A stretch of 57,673 nt of DNA, filler included, from Sluysia triapertura (Eukaryota): the NCBI GenBank assembly GCA_046118255.1. It is 5 parts of 5 records of this genome, joined end to end, with 100 filler letters (N's around TTAATTAATTAA, not from the genome) between each part and the next. Parts side by side here need not be neighbours in the genome. Positions count along the whole stretch, not along the records: positions 1 to 11,245 come from JBJNIA010186869.1; 4 more parts are not named here. One strand, written 5' to 3'. This document shows, in pieces, positions 1 to 46,572 of this stretch. The notes under the pieces are model-generated. The model was not told where the DNA came from. It was given only the letters and a program-made list of their open reading frames with translations, and did not search any database. Each line of letters opens with the position of its first letter. Position 1 is the stretch's first letter. The translations under genes were made by a program, and so were the position numbers.

Positions 1-580
1 AAATTTTAAAATGATATTACGCAACCCTTGTATGGTGTTGCTTTAAAATAAAAAATATTTTAAGTAGGATTTTTTGATTCCCAAATGGTGAATCGCCCTT
101 ATAAAAATAACAATTACTTGTTCATGGAAAATCTAAAGTTGAAAAAATCTTCGGACACTTGAATATTCTTCGGCAAATTTTCCTAAAAATTTTTCTAAAA
201 ATTTTTTGTGAAACTTATATTAAAATCTTACCCTATTTATAGATATTTTAGTGTCTTCCATTTTTTCTTTATTCCATTTAATAAAATTATTTTAATAAAA
301 CAAAAGTAAAATTTTCTTTATTTTTAAAAATTATAAAATTCTTTAAATTTAAACTTTATTTTTATTTAAATTTATTAATTTTTAAAGTTTTAATTTAAAT
401 TTTATTTTATTTAAATTTAAATTAATTTTTTAAATTAATTTAAATTTTTTATTTACTTAAATTAATTATTTTGTAATTTTGTAAATTAATATTTTTTTAT
501 AATATAATAATGATAATAATTTATAAAATAAATAACTATTCAAATATACAATTATATACAATTAATAATTAATTCTGACA
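1..580 (-). mobile_element. LTR-like repeat (family B), partial, apparently inserted into the Gypsy polyprotein ORF
   Basis: Minus strand starts TGTCAG at 580, then an AT-rich tract and TATAAATAG (~233-241). Bases ~15-130 align by eye with 10760-10870. Coding-like sequence starts immediately at 581. Confidence 0.5.
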
Positions 581-625
581 TAGATAAGGTTTTAGATTTT
601 GTAATTAAGAAAACTAAATTATGGA

Positions 626-1640
626 TTGAAAATCAATATAACGAAAGAAAAAAAGAGCCAAAAAACAGAAGAGCCGACAAATATAATGACACAATTATTT
701 GGCAATAACGGTAATATGTTAAATAACGTAATACCAAGGATAGGTAATTCAACAAATAATATGTTATTTATCATGATATTATTAGCAATATTCGGCATAA
801 ATAGAACTAATGCAATAAAGGCATTTGACTGTAATCAGCCACCAATAGGTAGAAAATTTTCATTATTCGATACGGAAGAATACAAATAAAAGATACTAAG
901 TTAATGAGTGTTTATCAAGAAGGTAATCTAACAACAACTCTAATAAGAGAGTGCATGGCAAAACGATCATTGGCAATCTGGTATGGCGGTCACCATAGAA
1001 TAATAATAGAATTATCAATAATAGAATTATCTAATGTACTCAAACCATTTAAGAAATTACCTAAACAATGCAGAGATGTATTTGAAACCAGCTACATAAG
1101 TCTAACAAAGGGAGACAAATTAAAATAGGAAATAATGAAAAGATAATTTATAATATAAGAACCGCCGGAAACGTATTGATAGATGGAACATGCGAACAAG
1201 GAACAATCGAATACGAGGGAAAAATATATCACAATGTTGCCGCACAGGAGACATGCGTAGTTAGTTTAAAATCATTTAATGAAAGTTTTTATATGGATAA
1301 AGGCACGATGATGTCCCGATCATATTGTAAAAGTGATCAAACCAGTTGTGACAATGGAGAATCAATATTAATTTACGAACTAGACAAATTTCAGTTAATA
1401 TTCCTTAAACAAATAAAATTTAATGTAATATCGGAATTTATGTATCAAGATAAAGATGAACACCCATTAGAAGAAATAAATAGAAATGATGACCAAATAC
1501 AAAGAAAAAGATTAGATGAAGTCGAAACACCGACAATACTAATGGATAGTAAAGAAGAAGATGGTCTGATTTTTACTGCTAAGGGAACAGAAATTCGATG
1601 CGGAAAAGAGATGACAGAAACTAACTATCAAGGAATTTAA
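626..1640 (+). pseudogene. env: Env-like glycoprotein, chuvirus G / class III-fusogen-like, N-terminal half, frameshifted
   Basis: Signal peptide MLFIMILLAIFGINRTNA (from 761), then IKAFDCNQP..FSLFDTEE, VYQE..IRECMAKRSLAIWY(G)GHH, GTCEQG..YEGKIYHNV, CG..M..TNY. The Cys pattern matches remembered chuvirus-like glycoproteins. Confidence 0.7.
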
Positions 1641-1802
1641 AATAATGAGAATGAAGAAATAGCAGAAAATCAAAAACACATTAAGATCAAGAAAACTATA
1701 GACATAACTAAAGATAATCAGGAAAAAGGACTTTATCCTATTACTCCAACATCACCACCCCATGTAATCTATGTGATATGTGCTAATAATTATTATAATT
1801 GA

Positions 1803-2100
1803 TCGAATAGACCAATAGTAAACACTAGAATAAACATTAGAGTAGTAACGGCACTAATTGATACAGGAGCAGTAGCCTCCCTAATAAACGAAATAAAGAT
1901 GAATTAAAAAATTTAGCTAATCATATTTCTCATTTATCAGGAGTTACAGGCGATACCATTAATATAACCGGAGTGATGAAAGCTATATGTGAGATAGGAC
2001 AAAACAAGCTAGAAATTAAATTAAGAGTTATGAAAAAATGTCCAGAAGAAATGATAATGGGAATGGACATTCTGTCTCAATTAAAAGAAGTAACACTAGA
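1803..2100 (+). pseudogene. Retroviral-type aspartic protease (PR1)
   Basis: RPIVNTRINIRVVTALIDTGAVASLI (Asp codon 1860-1862); after a frameshift LSGVTG..ITG..EMIMGMDILSQL. Confidence 0.9.
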
Positions 2101-2149
2101 TTTCGACCAAGTTAAATTAATGTATAGTCGATCAAAGAGAGCTATTGAT

Positions 2150-2410
2150 GATGATGTATACGTCGATAAACCAATTTGGTTAGTAAAAAGAAGTGAATAT
2201 ATAATTCATGTCAAGACAAACAGTCTATTAACTGGAAATATCATGTTCATTGCATCAGAGGTCAACCAAGAGAAACTAGACATAGGAATAGCTAATGCAG
2301 TGTGCAATAATTGCGAAGGAAAAATACCAGTTCGGATTATAAACTATACAAATGACAATAAATGGATTTATACATGGACAAAATTAGGAAAAATAGTCAA
2401 ATATACGATA
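2150..2410 (+). pseudogene. dUTPase-like linker domain between PR and RT
   Basis: IGIANAV..GKIPVRIINYTNDNKWIYTWTKLGKI resembles the degenerate dUTPase-fold segment of many Gypsy pol proteins. Confidence 0.5.
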
Positions 2411-2589
2411 CCGCCACACATTAACTTAATTTCCGAAAACAAAAACGAAAACAAGATAAAGAGTAATTAAAATTACAACATGAAATAAAAGATGATGATT
2501 ACAGCGAAATAGTTATTACTAATAAGAACTTAACTAAGAAACAGATTGATCAATTATATAGTGTTATTTACCGATATCGAATTTAATGT

Positions 2590-3050
2590 CGAATTTAAAT
2601 GGACTAATGAACAAACTAATGCATTTAAGGAACTGAAAGAACGATTGACAACGGCACCAATATTAATTTTTCCGGATATTAACAAACCATTTATATTGAC
2701 TACTGATACTAGTAACTATGCTATTGGTGCGATTTTAGGCCAAAAAGACAAAAACAATTTAGAAGCAGTAATTACTTATGCCAGTCGACGTTTGAATAAG
2801 GCCGAGATGAATTATTCGACCATTGAAAGAGAATGTTTGGCTATTGTACACGCTTGCAAATTATTTAGACATTATTATTGGGACAGAAAGCTTATTTATA
2901 TACCGATCACAAGCCCCTAACATATTTATATAATTATAGAGATGAGGTCAGCCGATTAAGCAGATGGTTTAATAAATTAGCAGAATTTAATTTAGAAGTC
3001 ATTTATAAACCAGGCCCTCAAAACAATGGCGCGGATTCTATGTCACGCTT
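2590..3050 (+). pseudogene. pol: Gypsy RT connection and RNase H
   Basis: FKWTNEQTNAFKELKERLTTAPIL..FILTTDTSNYAIGAILGQ..YASRRLNKAEMNYSTIERECLAIV..(frameshift) YTDHKPL..YKPG..ADSMSR. Confidence 0.95.
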
Positions 3051-3088
3051 GACTAATGTAGATGATAAGGAAAATATTAATTTTATAC

Positions 3089-3251
3089 TGCTAGACTTCG
3101 TAAAATGGACTGACCGGGGATCGAACCCGGGACCATCGTCTGCGCAGTCCGACTGCTCTACCACTGAGCTCTCAGCCCCGTCCAACAATTTCAGTTTTAT
3201 TATATTCAATTTTATCAAATGGCACTTTTTTTTAGGCCTTTTACCCCAACA
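3089..3251 (-). mobile_element. 163-bp TG...CA mini-element (solo-LTR-like) carrying a tRNA-like gene
   Basis: Flanked by ATAC at 3085-3088 and 3252-3255. Termini TGCTAG...CCAACA are an imperfect inverted repeat. Excision restores the pol frame (NFI-QIMSISGK). Second copy at ~41784-41923. Confidence 0.85.
3106..3178 (-). ncRNA. tRNA-like sequence with non-canonical anticodon arm, followed by TTTT
   Basis: GGGCTGA/TCAGTCC acceptor stem, GCTC-AGTGGTA-GAGC D arm, CCGGG-TTCGATC-CCCGG T arm. Anticodon region irregular (GACTGCGCAGA, loosely Cys-like); isotype not assignable. Confidence 0.7.
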
Positions 3252-3255
3252 ATAC

Positions 3256-4430
3256 AAATAATGTCAATATCAGGAAAAGTACAGGATACTAAAGAAATTA
3301 TTAAACATCAAAGAGAGGATAAGGAAACCGCTTATATTATAGATTCGCTAGCAAAGGGAACGTTAATCGAAAGCCAAGCAAATAGGTTAGCTATTACTGA
3401 CGGAATACTCAGATTCAGAAATTCGAAAGGTGAATTAGGCGGTCATTTATCTAAGAGAAAGACACTATCTAGAATAAAAGACAAATATTATTGGGAAGAT
3501 ATGGAAGATGATATTACAAATTGGTATAAAGATTGTTCAATATGTTGTAGAAGAAAAAATATGGGAACAAGAACAAAGGTACCATTAAAACCTATGCATG
3601 TACCATTGTCACTAATGGAATTTACAGCAATGGACATAATCGGACCACTACCGGAAACTATCAGTGGAAACAAGTATATTATTGTGTTTGCTGACTATTT
3701 AACTAAATGGCCTGAAGCATATCCAATGCCGAATCAAAAAGCAGAAACTGTAGCACAAATATTGGTAGAAAAAATAATATACAGGTATGGTACACCAAGA
3801 AAATTATTAACTGATCAAGGTACAAATTTTACTGGTGATGTAATCAAATCAGTAGCAATAATATTTTATATTCTTAGAATTCATACATCACCTTACCATC
3901 CACAAACTGACGGATTAGTCGAACGATTTAATCGAGCATTGATAAATATGTTACAATCCTATATTAATGACAGACAATCCGATTGGGATTTATACATTTC
4001 ACCATGTTTATTTGCCTGTACGTGGTTCTGTACATCCAGCTACGAATTTTATACCATTTTACTTAATGTAGGGACGGCATTCTAATATGCCTGTAGATTT
4101 AGAATGGATACCACCAACGTCACAATACATGGAAACTCCGGAATATGTAACAGTAATGCATGAGAGATTACAAGATGCATGGAAACGTGCTGGATTGCAA
4201 ATAAAATTTTCACAAGGAGTATACAAAGACACTTATGATAAAAAAGCCAAACAACACACTTTTCAAATCGGTGACAAAGTACTTATTGAATATCCTGACA
4301 AAACCTGGACAATCACCAAAATTACATAAACCATTCAAAGGACCATACAAAGTAATAAAAATTACCGATACTAATTTATTTGTCAAAGACACTATTAAAT
4401 CAGATTCCGAAACATTTATAGTTCATGTAA
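3256..4430 (+). pseudogene. pol: Gypsy integrase (partial HHCC, DDE core, GPY/F)
   Basis: GGHL..YYW..CSIC; AMDIIGPLP; LLTDQGTNF; HPQTDGLVERFNR; frameshifted tail FQIGDKVL..KLHKPFKGPYKV..IVHVNRCK. Confidence 0.95.
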
Positions 4431-4589
4431 ATAGGTGTAAATTAGCACCAAACAATGAATATAGGTTAAGTAATAGGACAGTTACTAAAACATTAATAAA
4501 AGCTAAACCGAAAATTAAAGACCGTGACAATACAATCATTAGTTGATAAACAAGTAATAATGATATTCAATGTATCAACAGGAATACGA

Positions 4590-4910
4590 ACACATATCTT
4601 TCAAAACGTACGATTTAATGGTAGATGAACCGGAGCTACCACATCTGTAATACATTATAATTTTTTAATTACATGGGAAGTTGTACTTATAGGTCCACCA
4701 CAAACGATAATTTACAATGTTCAACGAGCACCTATACATATGAATGGAATAATACACGCGCATTTACATGTATTAGACAAACAAGTAAATGAGTATATTT
4801 ACGTTTGGGGAGAATCTCCTTTCGATTTAATAATTGGTTTAAATTAGATGATATAGTTATACATAGTAAATACGGACTTATGAAATGTCCATACGGTACA
4901 CAATTACTAG
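4590..4910 (+). pseudogene. Second retropepsin-like aspartic protease (PR2) downstream of integrase
   Basis: One frame reads QNVRFNGR*TGATTSVIHYNFL..IIYNVQRAPIHMNGIIHAHLHVLDKQVNEYIYVWGESPFDLIIGLN. It has (D)TGA and DLIIG motifs; the Asp codon is disrupted at ~4624-4629. Confidence 0.7.
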
Positions 4911-5109
4911 TCCCACAAATTATTGTTCTATCTCTTCATAATGATATTACTCCAATTCATATTCCTACACCTGAACTCCCATCTGGCCGATTAACTGATT
5001 TATGTCATCAGTAACAAGTGAATTTTCAGAATCATTGTCATCAGGAATCGGTTCTGTCGAGACAGTAATGCTCACTTTCTCCAGTAAAAATAATAATAAG
5101 ACTAAGAAA

Positions 5110-5689
5110 TCATTCTGGACCTCATTATTAATATTAATAGTTCTATTTATAACTTTAATTGGTACAGTTAAATCAATAGATATTGAGGAATATTAGGAAT
5201 ATAGGAACTTATATGCCGCAATTAATAATGGAAAGACAAAAAAATATCGATTACAAATATATATAATGAGTATTGGGAAATGAAATTCAATTCAAAGAAA
5301 ATGTTTATACGTCATAAATTCGATATTTACTGCATTTATTTGAAACCGTTATTCATCGGAAAACCACATCATGTAGATAAAATACCACGATGTTTGCAAT
5401 ATGCAATAAACCAATGTTAGTAGCATTTTCATTGGACACTAAAAGAAATATAAGAAAAGTGCAAAATTTCATACAAAATATAACAAATAAAGTCATAAAG
5501 AATTGTACAACTAAGTTCAAAGCTAGCACACTATTATCTAACGATACTATGTATAATATTTTTACTTTAGTTCATAAGTTAATTATTATCTCAGTAATTC
5601 TTATAGTGGTATATGACATATGGATTATATTGCACATAGTTGACTTCAGTAAAAAAAACTACGAACAAGTAATATTAATAAAAAATTGA
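5110..5689 (+). pseudogene. Accessory membrane module 1 (signal peptide, ectodomain, TM), unknown function
   Basis: FWTSLLILIVLFITLIGTVKS|IDIEEY, then a disrupted ectodomain and TM LIIISVILIVVYDIWIIL. Confidence 0.5.
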
Positions 5690-6217
5690 TACATCTAACG
5701 ATAATGATGATAATCACTACAGCCCACTGTAATACTCATAATGTATTACTCATAATGTAATACTCATAATTACGACGCTGAGGTCAGAATCAAAGTATTA
5801 CAAAGTGACATTCAAGTTAGATTTTCTTGCTTAAAACCCGCACGATTTAATTTCAGCTCATGGGAAGTACAACAATATTATATCAATGATAGAGCAAATC
5901 CTGTCGCCATATGCCCTGATTTTCTACAAAACGAAGAAAGACACATTGTTGCAAGAATATATATAGCACCAGCTAAGATAGAACAATTACATTTTGCGTT
6001 AAAAGGAAAACGAAAATATTTGTCATTATCAGAAATGCTACGAAATGACCCGGAATTATTAATTTTAATTTTAGCTGGAATATTATTTGTTATTGCACTA
6101 TGCATTGTTATACTTGTAATTATTATGTTCATATCAAATAGATGTAGGTACCCATGTTTACCATATAATCGTGACGATGATGACAATCAATACACCATTC
6201 CGCATAGGACTAATTAA
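5690..6217 (+). pseudogene. Accessory type-I membrane module 2, unknown function
   Basis: Frame open from 5756 to 6217 (CNTHNYDAEVRIKVLQSDIQVRFSC..TM LLILILAGILFVIALCIVILVIIMFI..CRYPC). Signal-like LIHLTIMMIITTAHC is rejoined if two copies of the 14-bp repeat are removed. Confidence 0.6.
5728..5769. repeat. 14-bp tandem repeat x3 (TGTAATACTCATAA)
   Basis: Three adjacent copies, one mismatch; they cause a frameshift in module 2. Confidence 0.9.
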
Positions 6218-6307
6218 TGAACCGCCACCAGGATTTCAAGTAAGACCAACCCTGTCTACGAGTACGCAACAAATAAACATTCACCTTTAGTATACGGAGG
6301 ATGGCAA

Positions 6308-7242
6308 GTGACTAGTTTACAATCTGTCATGCTAGCATGTATATGTATGACTTGTATAATTAACGTATATGCAAAATCGATAATAATAAAGCCACATATT
6401 GCATTAAAAGTATTACAACGCACGATATATGCAAAGATAAGAAGCGATACTGCTATAGTCACTAATATTACTATGCACTGTTGTTTGACTAAATGGTGCA
6501 ATCATGAATCAGACGTTAGCAAATATACCAAGTACTGGATTGCATCTTGTGATGGTCTTATGGAAAATCAATAATTCAACGTCACTCTACATTTAGAATT
6601 TATGACAAATTGGGATTCGACAACCAAGTTTATATGTATGTACAGGATTTTCTTTTAGTTAGTCATCTTACAATAACTATTAAGTTCTTAATGACATTGT
6701 ATAGGGAGAACAATAACTTCGTTCATACATTAATTCCCTTAATAAAACATAATATATTAATAGGTTACGAATCAAATAAAAAGAATCTTACTAGTGATAA
6801 TTTTGACGCTCTTTTTGATAAAGAACAACATTATGCACTAATATTACCCAACACCAGTATTCATTTATTCTTTGTACCAGAACGCAATTTCACACTTATT
6901 GAAATTTGGATTCTACGTTATAACGAGATCCACGATATTCCTGGATTCTGGCCAGAGTATAGAGTATGCGATCTAGTGGTGCCAATCTTAGACAAGTCAG
7001 ATGTTCTAAATTATCCATCACCAGTTACGACCACTACTATTTTAAGTATATTAAAAACTATAAGTTATACTAGAACCACCAACTATGTCACTAGACCAAG
7101 TAAGAATATAAGTCTACAATCTTATAATTACTTGTGTTTAAGCCATCCGATCATCTCTACAAATTTATATCGCACTATTCTTAGTTATTACATTTTATTA
7201 AGTTTTCTTTTCGTTACTTCATTTATACACATTATATTCTAA
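6308..7242 (+). pseudogene. Accessory secreted/membrane module 3 with Thr-rich stalk and C-terminal hydrophobic anchor
   Basis: VMLACICMTCIINVYA|KSIIIKPHIALKVLQ.., Cys-containing ectodomain, PSPVTTTT stalk, terminal ILSYYILLSFLFVTSFIHIIF*; stop/frameshift near 6574-6610. Confidence 0.55.
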
Positions 7243-7472
7243 GTTCATAAGTTTTATTTATTTATAAGGCATAAAAATCAGTTTTTCATTAAAGTATAAA
7301 TTATAAAAGGCATAAAATGTGAGTGATAGCATTTCCCTGTTTACTAACCATGTGTGACGGCTGTTAACTTTCAATTCTCGGTTGTGGACAGGACAGCGTT
7401 GGAGCTCATATTTTAGTAAAATAACATACGCTATTTAGTTAAGAAGAAGTTTTACTAGCATAATTAGTTAAA

Positions 7473-7919
7473 ATGAATTTTCATATTCACCTTATGCTCC
7501 ATTTGTCGAAGGCCTATACATAGATACTACTCTATCGCAATACTTTGTAGACATCGCTTTCATTTGCGATGTCTGTATTTTCTGTTTGACTCTGCCCCGA
7601 TTCTCTTACTTTCTTGTTCTTTGTGCCGAGCCACAATCACAGAATGTGATATTTTTTTTATAAAAAGTCATTTCGTAGGTCTTACGACTTCTCTATCAAA
7701 TACATTAGACTTAACTCAATCCCTATTGTAGCTTATAATGGGCTCCGGGAGAATGCGAACGTTGATATTTATCAACCTCCAATTTTTCCAGGCGTTACCG
7801 TCCTGTACAACGGATTCCAGGTACCAAAGCCTGATTATCCACCAGGACTAACAAAATCACAAAGGCGTAATTATAGAAATTTCATAAGAATGCACGATTA
7901 TGCAAAAATCCATTTTTGA
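7473..7919 (+). pseudogene. RING-H2 finger protein (putative E3 ligase) inside the retroelement
   Basis: 7495-7629 translates to CSICRRPIHRYYSIAILCRHRFHLRCLYFLFDSAPILLLSCSLCR, with all eight C3H2C3 ligands. Frameshifted tail ..PPGLTKSQRRNYRNFIRMHDYAKIHF*. Absent from the ORF track. Confidence 0.85.
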
Positions 7920-8063
7920 AACGCTAGTATATTTCCTAATTATTATCGCTTATTATAGTACTAAAGTACATTGAAACATAAAAAATTACTTTTTAACATT
8001 TTTCTTTTATTTTTACGAATTTTCCTCTTTATGTAAATTTTAAATTATTTTCATAATCCAGCA

Positions 8064-8563
8064 CACATCGAGTCAAAATACCCCAAGCCAGAACCATCAA
8101 CCAAATCAAAATCTTTTACTAATCTATTGATAAATTCTGCGTAGAGAATACTACTCCTAAATTCTTTTCTAATTCCTTTGCCACGGACTGTAAACTGAAA
8201 TCCGAATTAACTGACAATGTGGCAACCAACATTTTTGCTTTATCATCAGAGATGCCTTTTACTTCCTTACAGGGCTTGACCAATGCGCCTGACGAATTTG
8301 AGACAATGCACATAGTAGCTGCACGAGTGACAATTAAGGTCACTCTAGAGGTTGAAGGAATCCCTTTATTATTACGCCTAGAAAATCACTCGACCCTCCA
8401 TCTATAAAATCTAAATATAAATCTTGTAAGGTAATGATGAAAGCCCTTTAATTCCAAACTTTTCTTTTTGTTCTGCCTTCTAATCCTCTTTTTGTTCTGC
8501 CTTCTAATCCTCTTTTTGTTCTGCCTTCTAATCCTCTTTTTGTTCTGCCTTCTAATCCTCTTT
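8064..8563 (-). pseudogene. Possible antisense accessory ORF with basic KRIRRQNK repeats
   Basis: One minus frame reads (KRIRRQNK)x4-KKSLELKGFHHYLTRF..VE*FSRRNNKG..VKPCKEVKGISDDKAKMLV..; a single internal stop. Confidence 0.35.
8464..8563. repeat. 24-bp perfect tandem repeat, at least 4 copies, running into an assembly gap
   Basis: Unit CTTTTTGTTCTGCCTTCTAATCCT. Confidence 0.95.
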
Positions 8564-8959
8564 NNNNNNNNNNNNNNNNNNNNNNNNNNNNNNNNNNNNN
8601 NNNNNNNNNNNNNNNNNNNNNNNNNNNNNNNNNNNNNNNNNNNNNNNNNNNNNNNNNNNNNNNTTGCTCTCTTTTTCCTCCCGTTTGCAGTGGATGGGAA
8701 GGCGGCTCATCATATACGCACGTTCCGCCCCTTTCTGCGTATGATGAGGAAAGACTTATGTTTGTGGCTTTTCAATATGCCACAGATTTCTTGAATAACC
8801 CTCAACTAATTTGTGTGACCTGTACTCCGTAAAGTCGTCAATTTCACACTGAGCCCCCATCAAACCTCGATGCCGTATCCAAAATTTGAGGCGCAACGTT
8901 CAAACGATCACGGACGTCGATCATAGGTTGGCTAAGGACATGGACGAGGTCCCCCGCAA

Positions 8960-9478
8960 TTGATAGGGATTTTACGTAATAAAATCCTAGTAGCGCTGAA
9001 TCCCAAATTTATTATTAATGCCTTAAACATTCCCTTCGGGTTGCTGAGAGGGATCATTAATTTATCAAACCATAATTTGGTTCCGTTTGCCACTGACGAT
9101 CCTTTTATTAGAGCACGTCAAACAGTGCGACTAATTTTCCATTTTAGTCCAGTGTTGACTTATCGGCAAATGGCATCAGAATTAGTAACCCTGCTTGATT
9201 ATAAAAGGGAGCGAGATTTACAGTTCATTTCTCGCTGTAATAACCCTCCACCCGTTCTCTTTAAGAAACCTTCTACTATCCCTACTTCTAATTCCAAACT
9301 TTCTCCTCCTTCTCCGAAAAAAACTCACATCTTCTTCTTCCCCTTCTACTTCTTTTTCTTTTCTTCCTTAACTTCCACTCCTCATTCGACAAGACAATTC
9401 AACGATTCACCATCATCTGCTCCATCGTTTGCCAAATCATCAGTGAATACTTCATCAGCAACTAAGACTTCATCATAG
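8960..9478 (+). pseudogene. Unknown accessory ORF with Ser/Pro-rich tail, probably part of a longer frameshifted ORF (8664-9650)
   Basis: 172-aa ORF in a locally GC-richer region; no family recognised. Confidence 0.35.
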
Positions 9479-9736
9479 CCAATCCACCACTCACTAAATT
9501 ACCAACGAGTACGACATCAATAAATCATCGAGAAGCACACGAGTTGCAGCTGCTGTCTCCAAAGAAATTTCATAGTGACAATGGTTCCCACTACTTGTTC
9601 CGATACGACTACCTACTCCATGAAGACGACTCGGTGGATTTGGACTGATAATTTAGACTAATATTACAATGATATTTCATAATAATTATGATCTATTTAT
9701 AATAATATGACATTTTTTTCGAGAACGAATTTTCCC

Positions 9737-9751
9737 GAAAGGGAAAGTAGT
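9737..9751 (+). promoter_or_regulatory. Polypurine tract
   Basis: GAAAGGGAAAGTAGT immediately before TGTAAAG, preceded by TTCGAGAACGAATTTT, a Gypsy-like context. Confidence 0.75.
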
Positions 9752-11245: not shown

Positions 11246-11345
11246 NNNNNNNNNNNNNNNNNNNNNNNNNNNNNNNNNNNNNNNNNNNNTTAATTAATTA
11301 ANNNNNNNNNNNNNNNNNNNNNNNNNNNNNNNNNNNNNNNNNNNN
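11246..11345. other. Artificial contig spacer
   Basis: N44-TTAATTAATTAA-N44 (stop codons in all six frames). Confidence 0.95.
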
Positions 11346-21219: not shown

Positions 21220-23663
21220 GTAGTAATATAATTACAAAATAATAATAGCAAAAGTAATAATAGTAATTCAAACATTTTTTCTAAAACGCAACTTCGTAAA
21301 AATGACCTTTGGTACTTATTTTTTAGACCATAATTTTTTGAAAATTAAAATAACAAGGAAATAAGAAAATAAAATAGAAAAAATGGTATAGTTAATTAAT
21401 TTTTGTATTTTTTCTATTATAATTATGTCAAAATACATCGATATCGTTGGTCTTTATCGTTTGTTATTAAATTTATTCATGTCAAGATTTCTTTTATTTT
21501 TGTATTATGAAGTATCATCGTCCCATAAGATGGAAGTAATTGTTAAATAATACAAAAATCAACAAAGTTATTATATGAAGGTATATTTTTATAATAATAT
21601 AAACATTAAAGACAAACTAAGATGATTACAAATTTGGTTCAACTTATCTTTCACATTTATTCTACTTGATAAGATTTTAATTTTAAATTGTTCGAAAAAC
21701 AAAAACGAATCGCCCACACATAACGACAATTTATTCAAATTACGATCGAAATCCAATATATAACCAAATAGAAATTTAATCGAATACCAATATTAGCTTA
21801 AAAAATTATTAGTGACACTTTTGTCTGAACATTGCTTTTATGTAATATCCTGTGCTTTTGCTATACTATTACCCTGTTTAGTTTTTTTATGGAATAAAAT
21901 ATAATGCTCATTTTAAAACATTTTAATTGTAAAATATACTACTCAAATCATTTTAAAATACATATTTATAATAAAAATCATTTTAAAATTATATAAAAAT
22001 TACTATTGAGATCATAATGCTTTTATATTACATTAAAGTGAGATAATATAGAAGTAATATAAATTTAAAATTTAGTAACAATAACAATCAATTTTAATTG
22101 AAATTGCATAAATAATCATTTTAAAGTGAGATTGTATAAAAACAATATGAAATCAAATTTTAAGAGCATAATATCCGATCAAAACTATCTTAAAACAGGA
22201 TTTAGAAAATTATATACATAAATCAAATCATATAAAATTAGGATTAAATAAAAACAGCATGTAATCAAAATTTAATAACATTATATTCGATCAAAATTAA
22301 CTTAAATTAAAGATTAGACAGAATAGATAGAAGTCATTTGTAATCAAAATTTAAAAGAATTATAATCGAAAAAAATCTTGAAATCAAAATTTCATGCCAC
22401 AATAAGTCCTAATTCAGACATGAAAAATTAAATAATTATTTAGAACGAACTATAACATGTACTGAACTATATTATTAATTGAACTACAATATGTATTTAT
22501 TATTAATTGGACTATAATATGTACTGATAACGGTGTTATTTATTTATCGAATTATATTAATATGAATGCTGTTATTAAAATTAATTATTTACGCGTATAT
22601 TAATAAATTATATCAATTATTAATATTCATTAATTATCTGTTATTAGTGAACCAGTATAAAAGCAAAAAACTAAATATAAGAAAAATAAATTATCAAGTT
22701 ATATATATATTTCTAGTGAAGATTTACGAACGATTATAATTCTGAACTGAATACTTTTTAAATACTGGTATAGAACAATCTTATAATAACATTAATCAAC
22801 TATTTCATTCATTTATTCAAAAAGGAAAAACTGAACGATCTGGTGATAACGTATTTTTTATTTTTCTGGTCTGAATATTAATAAGATTATAATTATAATT
22901 TTGATAATTTAAATATAAAATTAATACTAATTGCATTATAAAAAATTATATTATTGTAATTATCTGAAATAATTTTTTGTACTGTTATTTTTTATTTTTT
23001 TTGTGAATTGTAATAAAAGAGGAGTTGAAAGTAGAACCACAAGACAAAGCTAAAGCCATAAAATATTAGGATTATTATAAGTTAAGATAAAGTATAATTA
23101 CAGAATTAATTAAGATAATGTTAGGAAATAACAAAATTTTAACCAAATACGATTTTAAAGAATTAATTGGTTATTTAGCACTTCCGTCTCGAACTGGGAC
23201 AAGTATTTGAATTCATATCTTCAGATTAAGTAAAGCTAATATATTGATATAGAGTATAGGTATCATCTTCAGAATAAATTAGTAAAAGTTACACTAACAA
23301 TAAGAGTTTAACCTCTTGAATATTGACTCAAATTTTCCAGGCATGAGTTTAAAATTTAAATCACAAAAAGCATACGCAACTAATTATAAAGCAGAGAAGT
23401 TTCAATGAAATTACTACCATGCACCTATAATTCATAATATTAAATTTACATGGCTTATTAATGTGGAGCATACACTCTTTTTATTAGGTATCTATTTAAT
23501 ATTTGTATTTGTTCGGTATTGTAGCTACTTTTACAAAAGCAAGCATCTGACCACATTCATCTGCTCCTAGTCATTTATTTTAATTGTACCGTTCACTTGG
23601 AAACATATTTCGTTCATGTCTGTTCATTAATATTAATATTATTATTATTAAAATATTTTAAAT

Positions 23664-23763
23664 NNNNNNNNNNNNNNNNNNNNNNNNNNNNNNNNNNNNN
23701 NNNNNNNTTAATTAATTAANNNNNNNNNNNNNNNNNNNNNNNNNNNNNNNNNNNNNNNNNNNN
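23664..23763. other. Artificial contig spacer
   Basis: N44-TTAATTAATTAA-N44. Confidence 0.95.
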
Positions 23764-38810: not shown

Positions 38811-40592
38811 ACTAACTTAATTGACCTCAATGTAGACTTGATAATTCATCCAAAGACTTTAATATTGATGATGAATCGGTGTATACGGAATATATATTAA
38901 ATAGTAAGAATGATGACATTTTATCTCAAAACATACAAATGTCATTTTTAGTTCCGGTTAATACTATGATGAATGTAAATGAATGATTACCAAACAATTT
39001 CACGGAATCATGACACATTAGAAAGTAAAGAAAATATTGAGAATTGTGGTAACAGTTTACGTTATAATATTTTTCAAGATAACATACAATCAGGAAGTAA
39101 TTCTCCTACTCTTTTTAAAAGCTTTCACAAGTCGATTGAATGCTTATCTGAATTAAAAGAAAATACGGAAATTATAGTCTACAAAGACTATAATTGCAGA
39201 TAAAGCAAATGACGAAGTTGAGATTGAGAAAAAAGATGTAAAACAGAGTAATATGAACCTAATTCAAAATTTTGACAATGCACGACAAATATTTAATGGT
39301 GAATTAAATGATAAATTTCTGCAAAAAATATGTCCCAGGTGTGTTTAGAATCTAACGAAAAATGCAAAAAAGATTACAAGACACTATTTCTTCTAAATGT
39401 CAACTTTTTTACTATATACCTAAAATTGTAACGTATGCTCCATCAATTCCTAGAAATCCAGTGTTTCAAAAACATTTCAATAATGAATGACACACAAGTC
39501 AATATATTAGAACAGCACTTTGCCCATAAAGCAGTGACCCAAAAGGTATTTGCATGAAGTTTGGGATCCATTATCAATATGCCCACACAGTTAGCCAAAT
39601 AGTAAATCTTAAGACCGAAGATACGTCTCATGCTGATCACTTTTCCAGACTCGAAAATCTTCTCCAATACTTTGGATTATCAACTTTAAAAAAATCGGAC
39701 AAGATTGTATTCATAAAGTAAATAACTTTTATCCTGACATCAATGATGATATAATTTTTGATTTTTATTTAGATGGCGTAATGTGGAATTCGATAAATGG
39801 CATATATGGGACTAAACACGTGAATTCTAAAAATTTTATAAATAAATCTTTGTGTTAATTATTATTAATGATTTTCTTAATTTTCTATACAGCATAAATT
39901 TAAAATATAAAAACTTAATAAGTTTTTGTACGAAGAACAAACTAATTTCAGTTATAAAGTTCATCTTTAATTTAAACCATATCATAACTCAACAAACATA
40001 ATTATAAATTATAAATTTATATAAATTAACAATAAAAATAATTTAAACAATTTTTAGTAAATAAATAAATATAAAATTGTAATAATTTACAAGATTACTA
40101 CATGAATATAGTAATCCAAGTAATTGAGTTTAAAATAGAAAAAATCTAAAAAAAACTGTTTAAAAATGTTTTGAAGAAGGTAAATTAAAAATAAATTTTA
40201 ACTAAAAATTTTCTGCTTAAATGTTGATTAAATAGCGTTATAATCTTAAAAATTGTATGCTAACGATTATTGTGATTAAAGATGAAGTCCGTCTCAAAAT
40301 ATAGTTTAATTAGTCCTGACGGCAAATACAAATTTTTCCAAATTAATATTTAAAAAATTAACTGGTAAGGAAACCGCTTTGAAAATAAAATTTTTTTGTA
40401 TGAACAATAGTAGTTTACACTACTATTTATATATTAATTGATATTGACCTTGAAGGTCTCGGGTAGTGAAGTTGATTTTATAAGCATAAAACCTAAATAT
40501 AGAGTTAGAAACTGACCAAAAAACGAAAATGTATTATGCAATATGTATTTCATGAATATTTCATGTATTTCAATATTGTTAATGTAGAAAGA

Positions 40593-41783: not shown

Positions 41784-41923
41784 TGCTTGGTCACTTAATC
41801 GAACCCGGGACCATTTTCTGCGCAGTCGGTGCTCTACCACTGAGCTATCAGTTCCGTCTAACTATTTCATTTTTATTAAATTCAATTTTATCAAATGGCA
41901 CTCTTATGCCTTTTACCCCAACA
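41784..41923 (-). mobile_element. Second, more decayed copy of the tRNA-carrying mini-element
   Basis: ATCGAACCCGGGACCAT..CTGCGCAGTC..TGCTCTACCACTGAGCT..TTCAATTTTATCAAATGGCACT..GCCTTTTACCCCAACA shared with 3120-3251; same CA end. Confidence 0.85.
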
Positions 41924-43079
41924 CTAGATACGTTGCTAAACTCACATATAGTTTTATTCTCGTTTGGAAAACAAGCTTTTCTCACAGTATTATTTTATTA
42001 TTATTATATTAGTGTAATAAAATATTAAAATTATTATAAAATCATAAATGTTTATTTAAAGTATTAAGAAAATTCATTTAAAATATTAAAAAAATTTTCA
42101 ACCAACTTATATTTAAATTTTTTGTTTGAACAAATCAATACTCAATATCTGGGCTTACGGATTACGGCTAGACCGTTGAATTTAAAAAAAAATAATAACG
42201 TTCAATTATTGGAGGTTAAACTTAGTCTCAAATGTCTTATTAATGAACTTTAGCGTTACTTCTTATGTAAGCAATGGTGTAAACTGTTAAGTGATGTATC
42301 ACAAATTTTACTATTCAAAATATAGTGGGGTTTAGACTGATTATTGAATATTAATCTTTTCATTCATTATCAAATTTTACGACAGATCTTTCTTAAATAG
42401 GATCTTTAGAATTTAATGGTTTGTGATATCCGATGAAAATTTCGGATTTTAAAAGAAAGAATTTGATCTGGTATTGTAATTTATAAAATTCGAATCTATG
42501 TAATTTACGAATGATCCTTCTTAAATAGGATCTTTAATTAATATTTTAATTATATATGTGTGAGGAAGTTTACGTTAATTCTCTATTAAACTGAATCAAA
42601 CAAAAAAACTTTGCATACTCATATTAAAAATAAGTTTTTCGTAAACATTGATACAAATATTTTAGTTAGGTTTAAATAAATGAATAAATAAGGTTTATTA
42701 TAAAAAATCAGACAAAAATATTTACAAAACATATATAATTAATGTGTGGAGGGCAATAAACATTCGAATTTATATTCTTTATTATTTTTTAATTTATTAT
42801 GGAAATTGCTTATAACTTTAATTAAATCTAAATTATTTACAGTATTAAATAAACCAAAACACTTTAACTTTGGTTGTATTATGTTTAACAAAGTAGGAGT
42901 AAGGCCTGTAACAAATAACAAACTTAAAAAGGTAACTAAATTTGCCATTTTATTAACTACCAACAATAAAAAAGAACAAAAAAGGTTAATATCAAATAAT
43001 AATAAAACTATGTTTTTCTGTACATCCACTAGAGTATCTTCCGGAGTTGCAACCAATAATTGTAATGTTATTAATCTAG

Positions 43080-43290
43080 CCATTATCCAGACAAATTCAA
43101 TATTAACATCTTCAGCAAAGCTTTCACCAGGTGGACAGTGGGAATGTTTATCGATCGATTTTTCTATTACTTCTTTAAGAGCACCTCTCGATATTAGATA
43201 GTCTCCACTACCACTAATGTAACCCTGTTTCGCGTGCATCTTAGAACGTTTACCCGTAATTGTCAGTGTATTTGGATCCATATGTATTAC
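43080..43290 (-). pseudogene. C1GALT1: Core 1 beta-1,3-galactosyltransferase (GT31) fragment inside the 269-aa ORF 42739-43548
   Basis: DPNTLTITGKRSKMHAKQGYISGSGDYLISRGALK..C..AEDVNI(frameshift)ICL parallels YFGRRFK..KQGYMSGGAGYVLSKEALK..EDLALG.C. Confidence 0.7.
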
Positions 43291-43924
43291 ATAGTCATTT
43301 TCTTCTTTAGTATGTGGTGGCTTAGAAGATTTTGAGTTATTTTTACTTTTATTGATATATGATTTAACACATTTCCAAAATATTACTATAACAGCAAAAA
43401 TCATCAAAAACATTCTGTCGTTAGAGTCAAATTTACTTTTACTTTCCCAATTATTTTTAACTTCATTAGGTATGAATTTAATATTTTTCTTAATAAATTG
43501 TAAACCATGATCTTGTCTTGAAGTATCTCCACTTGACATTTCAAACAATAATTTATTAATATATTTTTCATAAAATCTTTTTTATCCATATTCATCATAA
43601 TAATTAATGCTAATTTAAAATAAGTTTTCAAAACAAAATATTGTTATAATTTAAGTACTTTGAAACTAAATTATGTTAAATTCAAAAACATGATTAAAAA
43701 TAATTATTCCTTTAAACTACTAGATTTTTTTATTGTCATTTAATTATTAGTATATTTAAAGTTTACCAAAATAGAATTGGTCATATAATAGTCTGTTGTT
43801 TAGCAGGTTTTCTATTTTTTACAAGAATAATAATAATTAGGAAAAATCATTGTAATGAAATTAATCTACCACTTGGAGAAATATCCTTATGAAACAACTG
43901 AAAAATATTTGCAGATATTTTCCC

Positions 43925-44395
43925 ATTTTAATATAATCGTTTAACTTTTCCCAAATAATTCGATTTTTTTGTATATTTTCGATCATACCAACTCCATGAT
44001 CCGGATATAGATTAGCAAACATTTCGAAGCATGGATATGCGATTCCATCAAGAAATGATATTTGTAAACTTGGATCACAAGCTCTTTCTCAGTCCATTTG
44101 TTCAACATGTTTTTGACCAGTTGATTTTTCTAAATCACCTTGCGTAAAAAAACTCCTCATAGATCAATTCTGCAACTGCCCTTGTATTTTTCAAATTTTT
44201 TAGATTGATCGCTTAAATCTGCACATGTCATTAACAGATCTCTCGATAACACATGATATCCATCATTATTGATATCATATTTTGATTGAATCATAGCTCT
44301 TTATTCGGAAATAATTCTTAGGTGTTGAGCTAAATCTGTAGCTAAAATAATATCTTGAATTATATCTCAGACTTGCTTATATTCACATGATTCAA
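43925..44395 (-). pseudogene. PDE2A: Cyclic nucleotide phosphodiesterase 2 catalytic-domain fragment, intronless
   Basis: YKQV*DIIQDIILATDLAQHLRI..LLMTCADLSDQSK..VAELIYEEFF/TQGDLEK..MD*ERAC.PSLQISFLDGIAYPCF..NRIIW; three stops and at least two frameshifts. Confidence 0.9.
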
Positions 44396-45429
44396 AATAA
44401 AAGATCTTCATAAATGACAATATAAATTTATTCAAATTTCGAGGATTAATTGTTGTTTGAAGTCTGGATTTGCACTCTTCAATCATTGCTTTGAATTCAC
44501 TTTCGGAATCAATTTCTTTAAAATTACCAAATCTGTGAACACTTAAATACTTTCGGTTGCGGAATTCGTTCCAGTAGTATTAAGTTTTCGACCATTCATA
44601 ATTCGGAATAAATAAATATCAACATTTATTCCGAAGTTTTATTTCATATGATAAGCCGTTTTTATTTGAGGTTAAGTTAGTCGATGGTTGTAATTAATAT
44701 GGTGTTATAACAGATGTCAAGCTCGTTGAAGTTGTAGACAATATTGCAATTATGGGAGTGTATTGATTATATTTATGGTGATGTTGATTGTTAATGTCAC
44801 CACTTGAATAATTGTGAAATTTAGATTGTTTCTGAAAATTCGAAGTTGATAATGTAGAATCTGTTGATAATGTAGAATCTGTTGATTATGTGAATAACAT
44901 TGATGATGTAAATGAGAATCTTGTGAATTATTCACCGTGTGATTGTTATTTGAGTCAAAATATATTGATTGTTTATTGTACGAAGATGAAGTATAATTTC
45001 TGTTAGATTTTTCTAACCACAAATGCGAGTCTTTTTTGGTAGATGTGTAGTATTGAAAAAAAAGAACGAAAGATTGATAATAAGGATAAAATAAATAATA
45101 ATGATGATAAAAATTAAGTGGTTATTACATTTATTAATACTGAATTGTTGATGTTGAAATTTATTATAAAATTTATTATGGAAACTATTACAAAAGTTAT
45201 TTTAAAAGTTATTACTTGATAATCGTATTATATAACAATAATAACTATAATTAATATATATATTTTAATACGATCTGTAATAATAATAGTGGTAGTTCAT
45301 AATAATTAGGTGATGGTCATGTTTGTTTTTTGAATGAGTTTAGTAGTTTGTTTAATAGTCTGTATACATGTGAAGTGTTTTTATGTGATGAAATGTGATG
45401 GACTTTGTGTGATGAATTCCCTACAGTAT

Positions 45430-45780: not shown

Positions 45781-46149
45781 ATCACTTCAAAAATCATTAA
45801 TTTTGTATTTATAATTTCAAAATAACAATAAACTAAATGGAATTTATTTTAACATTTGTAACTTTGCTAATACTCTCTCATGATACTCTTTCATAATTCG
45901 TCATTTCGTTATTATCGCGCCACCGCTCACCGTGCCTTCAACCATCGTTTAACCGACCTACTCATCATCACATGTATCCGTCATCGTATCAGTCTCATGT
46001 ACACACTCATCATGTACCGTATAATCAACAAACACTTAACAGAAACAAGAGTCCCAGTATGAAATTACATGTCAAAAAATTTCCAGAAAGCAAAGAATTC
46101 ATCATAATGACTTAACTGAAGAGCGTACCGCTTCTAGAAATAGAGGACA

Positions 46150-46408
46150 GCAGCTGGCAGATCAATTAGATACAATGACAAGTTTTTGCTTGTTCGACCA
46201 AGATGCAATCGAACAAAGTGAAGTAATGGCTATTTTACAAAGTATGGGACAAAATCCAACAGCAGAAGAATGCGATAAAATTTTAAAAGCGCAGATAAAG
46301 ATGATAATCAAAAGATTACTTTTCTCGAATTTGTCAAACATGCCAACGAATTTATAAAGAAACCTAAAACTCAAAAGAGAAGAATTGAAACAAGATTTGA
46401 ATATATAA
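46150..46408 (+). pseudogene. Calmodulin-like EF-hand pseudogene fragment
   Basis: SFCLFDQD--AIEQSEVMAILQSMGQNPTAEECDKILK/ADKDDNQKITF/LEFV..EELKQ; EF1 loop deletion and frameshifts. Confidence 0.75.
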
Positions 46409-46472
46409 ACAGATTTTAATAATAATCATAATCATAATAATAACAGTGTTTTAAAATTAATGTAATAATAAT

Positions 46473-46572
46473 NNNNNNNNNNNNNNNNNNNNNNNNNNNN
46501 NNNNNNNNNNNNNNNNTTAATTAATTAANNNNNNNNNNNNNNNNNNNNNNNNNNNNNNNNNNNNNNNNNNNN
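46473..46572. other. Artificial contig spacer
   Basis: N44-TTAATTAATTAA-N44. Confidence 0.95.

What the first reader, a model, noticed from the sequence alone, without database searches (positions are those of the whole stretch)
761..1905. Env-like glycoprotein lies 5' of, and in frame with, the protease
Seen: from 1176 to ~1905 one frame carries glycoprotein, then LYPITPTSPP, then LIDTGA, with only two stops (1638, 1800). The signal peptide is internal, and coding-like sequence runs back to 581. Known: env normally follows pol, and chuvirus-like G capture is mainly described in BEL/Pao elements; LYPx and PT/SAP resemble ESCRT late motifs. Inference: an X-env-PR-RT polyprotein order, with the env C-terminal half deleted in this copy.
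Basis: partly seen in the sequence, partly recalled or inferred. Interest (0 to 1): 0.75.

Follow-up and report, generated by a model that had tools for sequence, protein, structure and literature searches.

The report
Decayed Burro-like gag-env-pol gypsy retrotransposon
This is a broken copy of a gypsy-type jumping gene whose intact relatives carry a predicted virus-like membrane-fusion protein in front of the protease within one very long reading frame, a layout already described for the Burro elements of planarian flatworms.

Summary
One frame (1086-1904) has only two stops (1638, 1800) and runs glycoprotein, LYPITPTSPP, LIDTGA. The signal peptide and the next env piece lie in two other frames.

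The order is real, not a chance junction between tandem elements. Eight single-ORF relatives (2,627-4,844 aa) read internal signal-like segment, full Monjiviricetes-type glycoprotein (PF24664) with TM, protease, RT, RNase H, integrase. Four also have Gag zinc knuckles upstream. The window's integrase groups with all eight.

This copy lacks gag, about 330 or more codons of env including the TM, and about 270 codons covering the RT core. It also carries a tRNA-derived insert, so it is dead.

The layout is known: in-frame env between gag and pol in planarian Burro (PMC6431247), and GAG-ENV-POL errantiviruses (PMC13524379). Relatives share Burro's ubiquitin-like, Bcl-2-like and ankyrin domains.

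The ESCRT reading is weak. A YP dipeptide is conserved in the env tail (12 of 14 relatives), a PT/SAP-like motif in none.

Not found in the papers searched: all eight ORFs end in a second predicted membrane protein after integrase.

The parts
605..760 (+). Remnant of the polyprotein spacer upstream of env (frame +2). Gag itself is not present in the window.
   Evidence: Frame open from 605; tblastn to P0004 95-167 covers 659-877
761..886 (+). Internal signal-peptide-like segment and env start (AFDC at 821), frame +2
   Evidence: Hydrophobic 749-799, KD 1.86; matches P0003 375-412 at 42%
853..1125 (+). Second env piece, frame +1
   Evidence: tblastn to P0002 191-259, P0025 249-317, P0003 426-459
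1086..1637 (+). Third env piece, frame +3; similarity ends at the C-x(7)-TNY motif (about 1620-1637)
   Evidence: PF24664 E 1.4e-4; 31-34% to P0003 509-669 and P0002 257-434; AFDC-to-TNY 266 codons against 262-282 aa in 11 relatives
1638..1730 (+). Deletion junction: env C-terminal half, TM and part of the tail are absent
   Evidence: TNY-to-YP 37 aa against 366-596 aa in 8 relatives; a profile of the env C-half from 10 relatives finds no hit in the six frames of the window
1731..1760 (+). LYPITPTSPP: YP motif of the env tail / env-protease linker
   Evidence: YP lies 42-64 aa before the first protease Asp in 12 of 14 relatives and 43 in the window; aligned
1803..2100 (+). Aspartic protease; LIDTGA with Asp at 1860 in frame +3, remainder in frame +2
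   Evidence: RVP E 1.3e-6; tblastn P0003 1084-1109 and 1128 onward
2063..2408 (+). Conserved spacer between protease and RT (the position of Burro's dUTPase-like domain; not identified as dUTPase here)
   Evidence: Profile of 12 relatives hits with iE 3e-22; no Pfam family at E<=1
2399..2575 (+). Second deletion: RT core absent
   Evidence: 59 codons against 327 aa in P0002; an RT-core profile has no hit better than iE 1.1 in the window
2576..3060 (+). RT connection / RNase H, in two frames
   Evidence: PF17919 E 1.8e-37, PF17917 E 3e-26; 53-57% to P0002 and P0003
3085..3251 (-). tRNA-derived SINE-like insert between RNase H and integrase
   Evidence: ARAGORN tRNA call 3106-3178; second copy 41798-41926 at 86%; 6 contigs of run X1 join 3084 to 3252 without it
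3276..4450 (+). Integrase (H2C2, core, C-terminal part) in three frames
   Evidence: PF17921 E 5e-13, PF00665 E 7e-10; 47-64% to P0002, P0003, P0025, P0028
4550..7240 (+). Decayed post-integrase region with several hydrophobic segments (5119-5169, 5579-5629, 6080-6130, 7177-7227); likely remains of accessory membrane proteins of the element
   Evidence: Hydropathy, and a weak match to the relatives' post-integrase profile at 5074-5401, iE 0.0078; covered by contigs of run X1 in all bins; no Pfam hit; no usable Atlas hit for 5756-6214

Best explanation
[quoted passage not shown] Likely mechanism of the intact element (inferred from anatomy, untested): one polyprotein is threaded through the ER membrane. 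Gag is made in the cytosol. The internal signal sequence opens translocation and signal peptidase would free the Env N-terminus. The env TM stops transfer, so protease-RT-RNase H-integrase would hang on the cytosolic tail of Env, and the element's own protease(s) would release them. A second internal signal after integrase would open a further type I membrane protein. Env would give the particle a fusogenic envelope for cell-to-cell or soma-to-germline spread. The conserved YP in the tail is most likely a cytosolic sorting or budding signal. This copy cannot do any of this.
For: Shown: 8 single ORFs with the order env+TM, PR, RT, RH, IN: P0002, P0003, P0025, P0028, P0150, P0152, P0153, P0154; landmarks. 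Zinc knuckles lie upstream in 4 of the 8 (3 by Pfam, P0003 by motif only). Six more proteins have env then protease without reaching RT (P0006, P0008, P0010, P0013, P0151, P0155; P0006 and P0008 share 90% clusters with P0025 and P0028). Window pieces map in order onto the same proteins from env to integrase. In an integrase tree of 48 rows the window lies in a 24-row group with all 8 env-PR ORFs and the 15 nearest integrase hits (94/83; 97/91 with one more row). Best PDB match of P0003 is Ty3 Gag-Pol, E 4.9e-119. Same layout in PMC6431247 section 7.
Against: No intact copy of this exact family was seen: relatives are only 25-42% identical in env and up to 68% in integrase. No genome is held. 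The listed rows show no contig at the env junction, and its tables are cut. The window's Pfam env score is below the curated cut-off. The class III / gB-like fold was not tested by structure, and sequence searches of PDB gave no fusogen among the rows shown. The 24-row group falls just short of the tree's starred threshold, and the window's closest rows (P0030, P0032, P0037, P0038) are fragments that do not reach env. Membrane topology, cleavage and particle formation are inferred only.
Confidence: 0.92

Rival explanations
1. The junction near 1640-1720 is a chance in-frame deletion between two tandem or nested elements, joining the 3' env of one to the protease of the next.
For: A junction does exist at 1638-1730. 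The copy is heavily rearranged (RT deletion, SINE-like insert). Frame is kept by chance 1 time in 3.
Against: The proteins that best match the env piece also match the protease, RNase H and integrase in the same order. The YP-to-Asp spacing of the relatives is kept (43 against 42-64). 0 of 15 nearest integrase relatives carry PF24664, although a separate downstream ORF would not show in protein records. Self-comparison shows no LTR pair.
Confidence: 0.04
2. The order is gag-env-pol, but in this particular family env and pol are separate ORFs joined by readthrough or frameshifting, so the in-frame state here is a by-product of the deletion.
For: PMC13524379 describes GAG-ENV-POL as an arrangement of ORFs and searched with gaps of up to 2,000 nt between ENV and POL. 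Some relatives are on record as separate env-side and pol-side proteins on contigs of equal length (P0004/P0033, P0013/P0035, P0151/P0040). A TGA lies at 1800 between the YP motif and the protease.
Against: 8 relatives have no stop between env and protease. The split records break within or after the protease region or near the TM at differing places, which fits decay or assembly error. The 1800 stop lies about 20 codons before the catalytic Asp, at the protease N-terminal edge.
Confidence: 0.08
3. LYP and PTSPP are ESCRT late domains that drive budding, as in retroviral Gag.
For: YP lies 42-64 aa before the protease Asp in 12 of 14 relatives, against 0.05-0.17 expected per tail for [LIMVH]YP (motif chosen after seeing the data). 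It sits on the predicted cytosolic side. 3 of 14 read YPxL and 6 of 14 read LYP.
Against: P[TS]xP occurs in 0 of 14 tails. The window's motif fits neither P[TS]AP nor LYPx(n)L (consensus recalled). The motif lies behind Env, not in Gag. In 3 relatives (P0002, P0150, P0013) the PF24664 alignment ends just past the YP at profile position 650 of 653, so it may be a feature of the glycoprotein family's tail, such as a tyrosine sorting signal.
Confidence: 0.2

Closest known systems
Burro / GYPSM1 giant gypsy-like LTR retrotransposons of planarians (Arkhipova & Yushenova 2019, PMC6431247; section 7 read whole)
   Same: [quoted passage not shown] Relatives here have ubiquitin-like (P0154 E 4e-5), Bcl-2-like (P0004 E 1e-3, P0151 E 1.5e-3) and ankyrin (P0025, P0151, P0154, P0041) domains.
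   Different: No Burro sequence was available, so orthology is untested. MATH, BIR, Smc and midasin-like domains were not among the Pfam hits. The section read does not mention extra protease domains or a post-integrase membrane protein. The host of the window is not determined.
GAG-ENV-POL errantiviruses with HSV/gB-type ENV of Nematoda, Bryozoa and Platyhelminthes (Chary & Hayashi 2026, PMC13524379; abstract, Results parts 1-2 of 5, Discussion, Methods section 14, passages and part of supplementary table 1 read)
   Same: Ty3/gypsy pol, env between gag and pol, glycoprotein resembling Chuviridae G and gB. The paper also reports 114 arthropod gypsy elements with the chuvirus-like glycoprotein, so such capture is not limited to BEL/Pao.
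   Different: The main text has no occurrence of 'in-frame', 'single ORF', 'fused', 'fibronectin', 'accessory' or 'Burro'. Five short env motifs of this clade were not found in its supplements as held (cells over 400 characters are cut), so overlap with its data set is undecided.
Non-canonical nematode ERVs (Sacco et al. 2022, J Gen Virol; not held; only its title and its citation in PMC13524379 were seen)
   Same: Flipped ENV-POL order in a metavirus with a captured RNA-virus glycoprotein (as cited). A continuous gag-env-pro-pol ORF is recalled from its abstract and comes from no call.
   Different: No sequence or text to compare; membership untested.
Anakin BEL/Pao elements with chuvirus G (Dezordi et al. 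2020, PMC7642597; passages read)
   Same: Same broad glycoprotein family carried by an LTR retrotransposon.
   Different: BEL/Pao pol there; Ty3/gypsy-type pol here.

Membership tests
Ty3/gypsy (Metaviridae) | pol order PR-RT-RH-IN | tested here: met
   Window: PR, gap, RH, IN. 8 relatives: PR, RT, RH, IN.
Ty3/gypsy (Metaviridae) | RT/pol most similar to Ty3/gypsy | tested here: met
   Tested on relative P0003 because the RT is deleted in the window: Ty3 Gag-Pol E 4.9e-119 and Ty3 RT E 1e-90 top the PDB list. No formal tree with named clades.
Ty3/gypsy (Metaviridae) | Paired LTRs, PBS, target-site duplication | tested here: inconclusive
   No LTR pair in the window; the 5' part is missing. A purine-rich tract followed by TG at 7318 is a candidate 3' LTR start, seen by eye.
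Burro-like gag-env-pol elements | env in frame between gag and protease in one ORF | tested here: met
   env-PR in one ORF in 8 full relatives, zinc knuckles upstream in 4. In the window only env-PR is present.
Burro-like gag-env-pol elements | Ubiquitin-like, BCL2-like and ankyrin accessory domains | tested here: inconclusive
   Present in relatives, mostly below Pfam cut-offs (Bcl-xL E 0.01 for P0004). Absent from the window, whose 5' part is lost.
Burro-like gag-env-pol elements | dUTPase-like domain between PR and RT | tested here: inconclusive
   A conserved spacer is there (iE 3e-22), but Pfam gives no dUTPase hit.
Burro-like gag-env-pol elements | Sequence kinship with Burro, giant size, planarian host | not testable with these tools
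HSV/gB-type (class III) envelope | gB-like fold and cysteine bridges | not tested
   No model was obtained. Relatives pass PF24664 at E down to 3e-95. No fusogen among the PDB rows shown.
BEL/Pao (Anakin) | BEL/Pao-type pol | tested here: not met
   pol matches Ty3 best. The Pao-typical Pfam domains (Peptidase_A17, DUF1758, DUF1759; names recalled) appear in none of the scans.
ESCRT late domains | P[TS]AP or LYPx(n)L, conserved among relatives | tested here: not met
   P[TS]xP in 0 of 14 tails, YPxL in 3 of 14, window LYPITPT. Only the YP core is conserved.

The most novel reading that the evidence does not exclude
This lineage is a retrovirus-like element with two envelope proteins cut from one polyprotein: a chuvirus/gB-type fusogen before the protease and a second, fast-evolving, fibronectin-type-III-like type I glycoprotein after integrase that serves as the attachment or immune-modulating partner. 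Up to seven protease-like domains and the conserved YP tail would organise processing and budding. All 8 full ORFs end in signal-like segment, ectodomain, TM-like segment. The ten best named Atlas hits for one ectodomain share the fn3 family or clan, top score 0.90, a lead only; fn3 was not among the 25 of 39 families shown in the Pfam scan. Two paper searches and term searches in two papers found no description. This would suggest how a gB-type retroelement envelope works without gH/gL/gD, which PMC13524379 calls unknown.
Probability: 0.3. Interest if true: 0.6.

Novelty: new member of a known kind. Interest (0 to 1): 0.27.

Why it matters
The env-before-protease order is real but published, so the window copy alone is a decayed example of a known layout. 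The by-product is more useful: eight intact single-ORF polyproteins from unannotated or mislabelled metagenome records (one is filed under a Flavobacteriaceae MAG). They make the open questions on these elements testable: how Gag, Env and Pol are released from one membrane-spanning precursor, and whether the post-integrase membrane protein is the missing partner of the gB-type fusogen.

Tried and rejected
- Word-indexed search with the env piece alone, longer proteins: 181 candidates, none at E<=0.001; the HMMER search of representatives succeeded.
- DNA around P0003 in genome contigs: 21 pattern matches, none confirmed.
- No genome held.
- Sequencing runs: one holder, X1, share 0.23, possibly the source sample; no RNA holder listed. 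The rows shown include no contig at the env or RT junction; tables are cut, so this is no evidence either way.
- No structure model was obtained, so the fold comparison with gB and chuvirus G was not done. PDB sequence searches with P0004 and alignment A1 showed only Bcl-2 and protease rows among the best 60 each.
- Atlas search of 5756-6214: no usable hit.
- Sacco et al. 2022 not held; 'gag-env-pro-pol' found in 0 papers.
- Earlier findings: nothing near, by words or by sequence; one search gave only loosely related notes.
- Rejected: BEL/Pao identity; tandem-element chimera; PT/SAP late domain; a minus-strand gag at 8000-9700 (no ORF of 120 aa or more on that strand there; none recognisable).
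- Rows left out: 8 of the 23 hits (105-234 aa) were not scanned with Pfam; the tree used 39 of the 120 listed hits (the 15 best and 24 others) plus the 8 full ORFs and the window.

Full report
Observation. The window is AT-rich eukaryotic DNA (GC 16-35% per kb) with host exons further on (RUN, Ndr and a weak phosphodiesterase hit). The host is likely an animal (inference from the element's known relatives); I did not determine it. Frame +3 is open from 1086 to 1904 except for stops at 1638 and 1800 and reads glycoprotein, LYPITPTSPP, LIDTGA. Pfam gives Monjiviricetes_fusion (PF24664) on 1086-1637 at E 1.4e-4, below its cut-off, and a retroviral protease on 1803-1904. The signal-peptide-like segment at 761 is in frame +2, open from 605. 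The next env piece is in frame +1. So env alone is spread over three frames, and the protease changes frame again after about 1900.

The rest of the element. After the protease comes a conserved spacer (2063-2408) and then RNase H (2576-3060); the RT core is missing, with 59 codons where P0002 has 327 residues. A tRNA-derived insert lies at 3085-3251; it has a second copy at 41798-41926, and 6 contigs of run X1 join across it. Integrase follows at 3276-4450 in three frames, then about 2.7 kb with several hydrophobic segments. Run X1 gave 19,055 laid pieces covering all 30 bins of 450-7400, most under 95% identity, which shows a family of many diverged copies; depth there is no copy number, and X1 may be the source sample. 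No LTR pair is in the window.

Intact relatives. HMMER with the frame read through with X found 23 proteins at E<=0.001 among 1.84 billion representatives. The 15 scanned all carry PF24664. Cluster look-up and a profile search added longer members. Eight proteins carry both the glycoprotein and RT/integrase in one ORF: P0002, P0003, P0025, P0028, P0150, P0152, P0153, P0154 (2,627-4,844 aa). In all eight the order is hydrophobic signal-like segment, glycoprotein, TM, protease, RT, RNase H, integrase. The window's pieces fall on these proteins in order from env to integrase. The 15 nearest integrase relatives (51-68% identity) carry no PF24664; they are protein records, so a separate downstream ORF would not show. 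In an integrase tree the window, those 15 and the eight full ORFs form one group of 24 rows (support 94/83; 97/91 with one further row), apart from the other gypsy integrases. The best PDB match of P0003 is Ty3 Gag-Pol.

The deletion. From the AFDC motif to the TNY motif the window spans 266 codons and 11 relatives span 262-282 residues, so the N-half is co-linear. From TNY to the YP motif the window has 37 residues and 8 relatives have 366-596. A profile of the env C-half and TM finds nothing in the window. At least about 330 codons, including the TM, are therefore absent between 1637 and 1731. That the frame is kept across this junction proves nothing alone; the order is established by the relatives.

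The motifs. A YP dipeptide lies 42-64 residues before the first protease Asp in 12 of 14 relatives that have both TM and protease, and 43 before it in the window. P0151 has none and P0154 has it only further away. Chance expectation for [LIMVH]YP was 0.05-0.17 per tail, with the motif chosen after seeing the data. Six of 14 read LYP and three read YPxL. P[TS]xP occurs in none. In three relatives the Pfam glycoprotein model ends just past the YP. The motif is best read as a conserved cytosolic-tail signal, for sorting or possibly ALIX binding; the PT/SAP reading fails.

Mechanism. Shown: domain order and a single ORF in relatives, and the breaks in this copy. Inferred: cytosolic Gag; an internal signal that opens translocation; a TM stop-transfer that leaves Pol on the cytosolic tail of Env; release by signal peptidase and by the element's proteases (one to seven D[TS]G domains per full ORF); a second internal signal after integrase that opens another type I membrane protein; and an enveloped particle that fuses with target cells. 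None of this is possible for the window copy.

Comparison with what is known. [quoted passage not shown] The relatives here carry ubiquitin-like, Bcl-2-like and ankyrin domains, mostly below Pfam cut-offs. PMC13524379 (abstract, two of five parts of Results, Discussion, one Methods section, passages and rows of supplementary table 1) reports GAG-ENV-POL elements with gB-type ENV in Nematoda, Bryozoa and Platyhelminthes, and 114 arthropod gypsy elements with the chuvirus-like glycoprotein. Its figure supplements and long cells could not be read and may bear on whether this clade is in its set. Sacco et al. 2022 was not held. PMC7642597 (passages) covers the BEL/Pao case. PMC12440569 (first part), PMC5408684 (passages) and PMC11410931 (passages) added background only. 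The element works like Burro; membership in Burro by descent is untested.

What may be new. All eight full ORFs end with a signal-like segment, an ectodomain of roughly 240-350 residues with N-glycosylation sequons in the post-integrase part, and a TM-like segment. These ectodomains are related within subgroups at 23-42% identity. The Atlas points to fibronectin type III at 0.90, a lead only, and fn3 was not among the Pfam families shown. Two searches and term searches found no description. In the window this module is only weakly recognisable (iE 0.0078 at 5074-5401).

Verdict. Observation confirmed, interpretation supported, architecture already described. New member of a known kind; interest 0.27. 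The two-glycoprotein reading has probability about 0.3 and would deserve about 0.6.

Noticed in passing
P0002, P0003, P0025, P0028, P0150, P0152, P0153, P0154 (C-termini); window 4550-7240: In-frame second membrane protein after integrase: signal-like segment, possible fn3-like ectodomain, TM. The window's 3' region has several hydrophobic segments that may be its decayed equivalents plus further accessory membrane ORFs (5756-6217, 6553-7242).
   Followed up: partly
P0025, P0013, P0152, P0002, P0150, P0010: Several aspartic-protease-like domains per polyprotein (up to 7 D[TS]G motifs in P0025), some after integrase.
   Followed up: partly
P0004 9-80, P0151 1172-1233, P0007, P0010, P0018; P0154 771-835, P0153 845-900: Bcl-2-like and ubiquitin-like domains between Gag and Env, and ankyrin repeats between Env and Pol, as reported for Burro.
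   Followed up: partly
window 3085-3251 and 41798-41926: tRNA-derived SINE-like repeat, two copies at 86% identity; ARAGORN calls the first a tRNA-Arg(GCG).
   Followed up: partly
window 7293-7320 and 7318-9740: Purine-rich tract then TG at 7318, a candidate polypurine tract and 3' LTR start. The following 2.4 kb is more GC-rich, with negative GC skew and a 24-bp tandem repeat at 8463-8563 that runs into an assembly gap.
   Followed up: no
P0003 (HBK71150.1), P0030: These retroelement proteins are filed under bacterial MAG names (Flavobacteriaceae, Turicibacter), likely eukaryotic contigs binned in error.
   Followed up: no
window 42739-43581 (-): 280-codon stop-free frame with hydrophobic segments and no convincing Pfam hit.
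   Followed up: no
window 38565-38897 (+), 44370-44579 (-), 43864-44088 (-), 46040-46354 (+): Host exons or pseudogenes: RUN domain (E 1.8e-8), Ndr family (E 5.6e-4), weak phosphodiesterase (E 0.029), and a calmodulin-like remnant seen by eye.
   Followed up: partly
window 11246-11345, 23663-23763, 35545-35644, 46472-46572: Assembly gaps of N with a TTAATTAATTAA linker in the middle; an artefact that produces false repeats.
   Followed up: no
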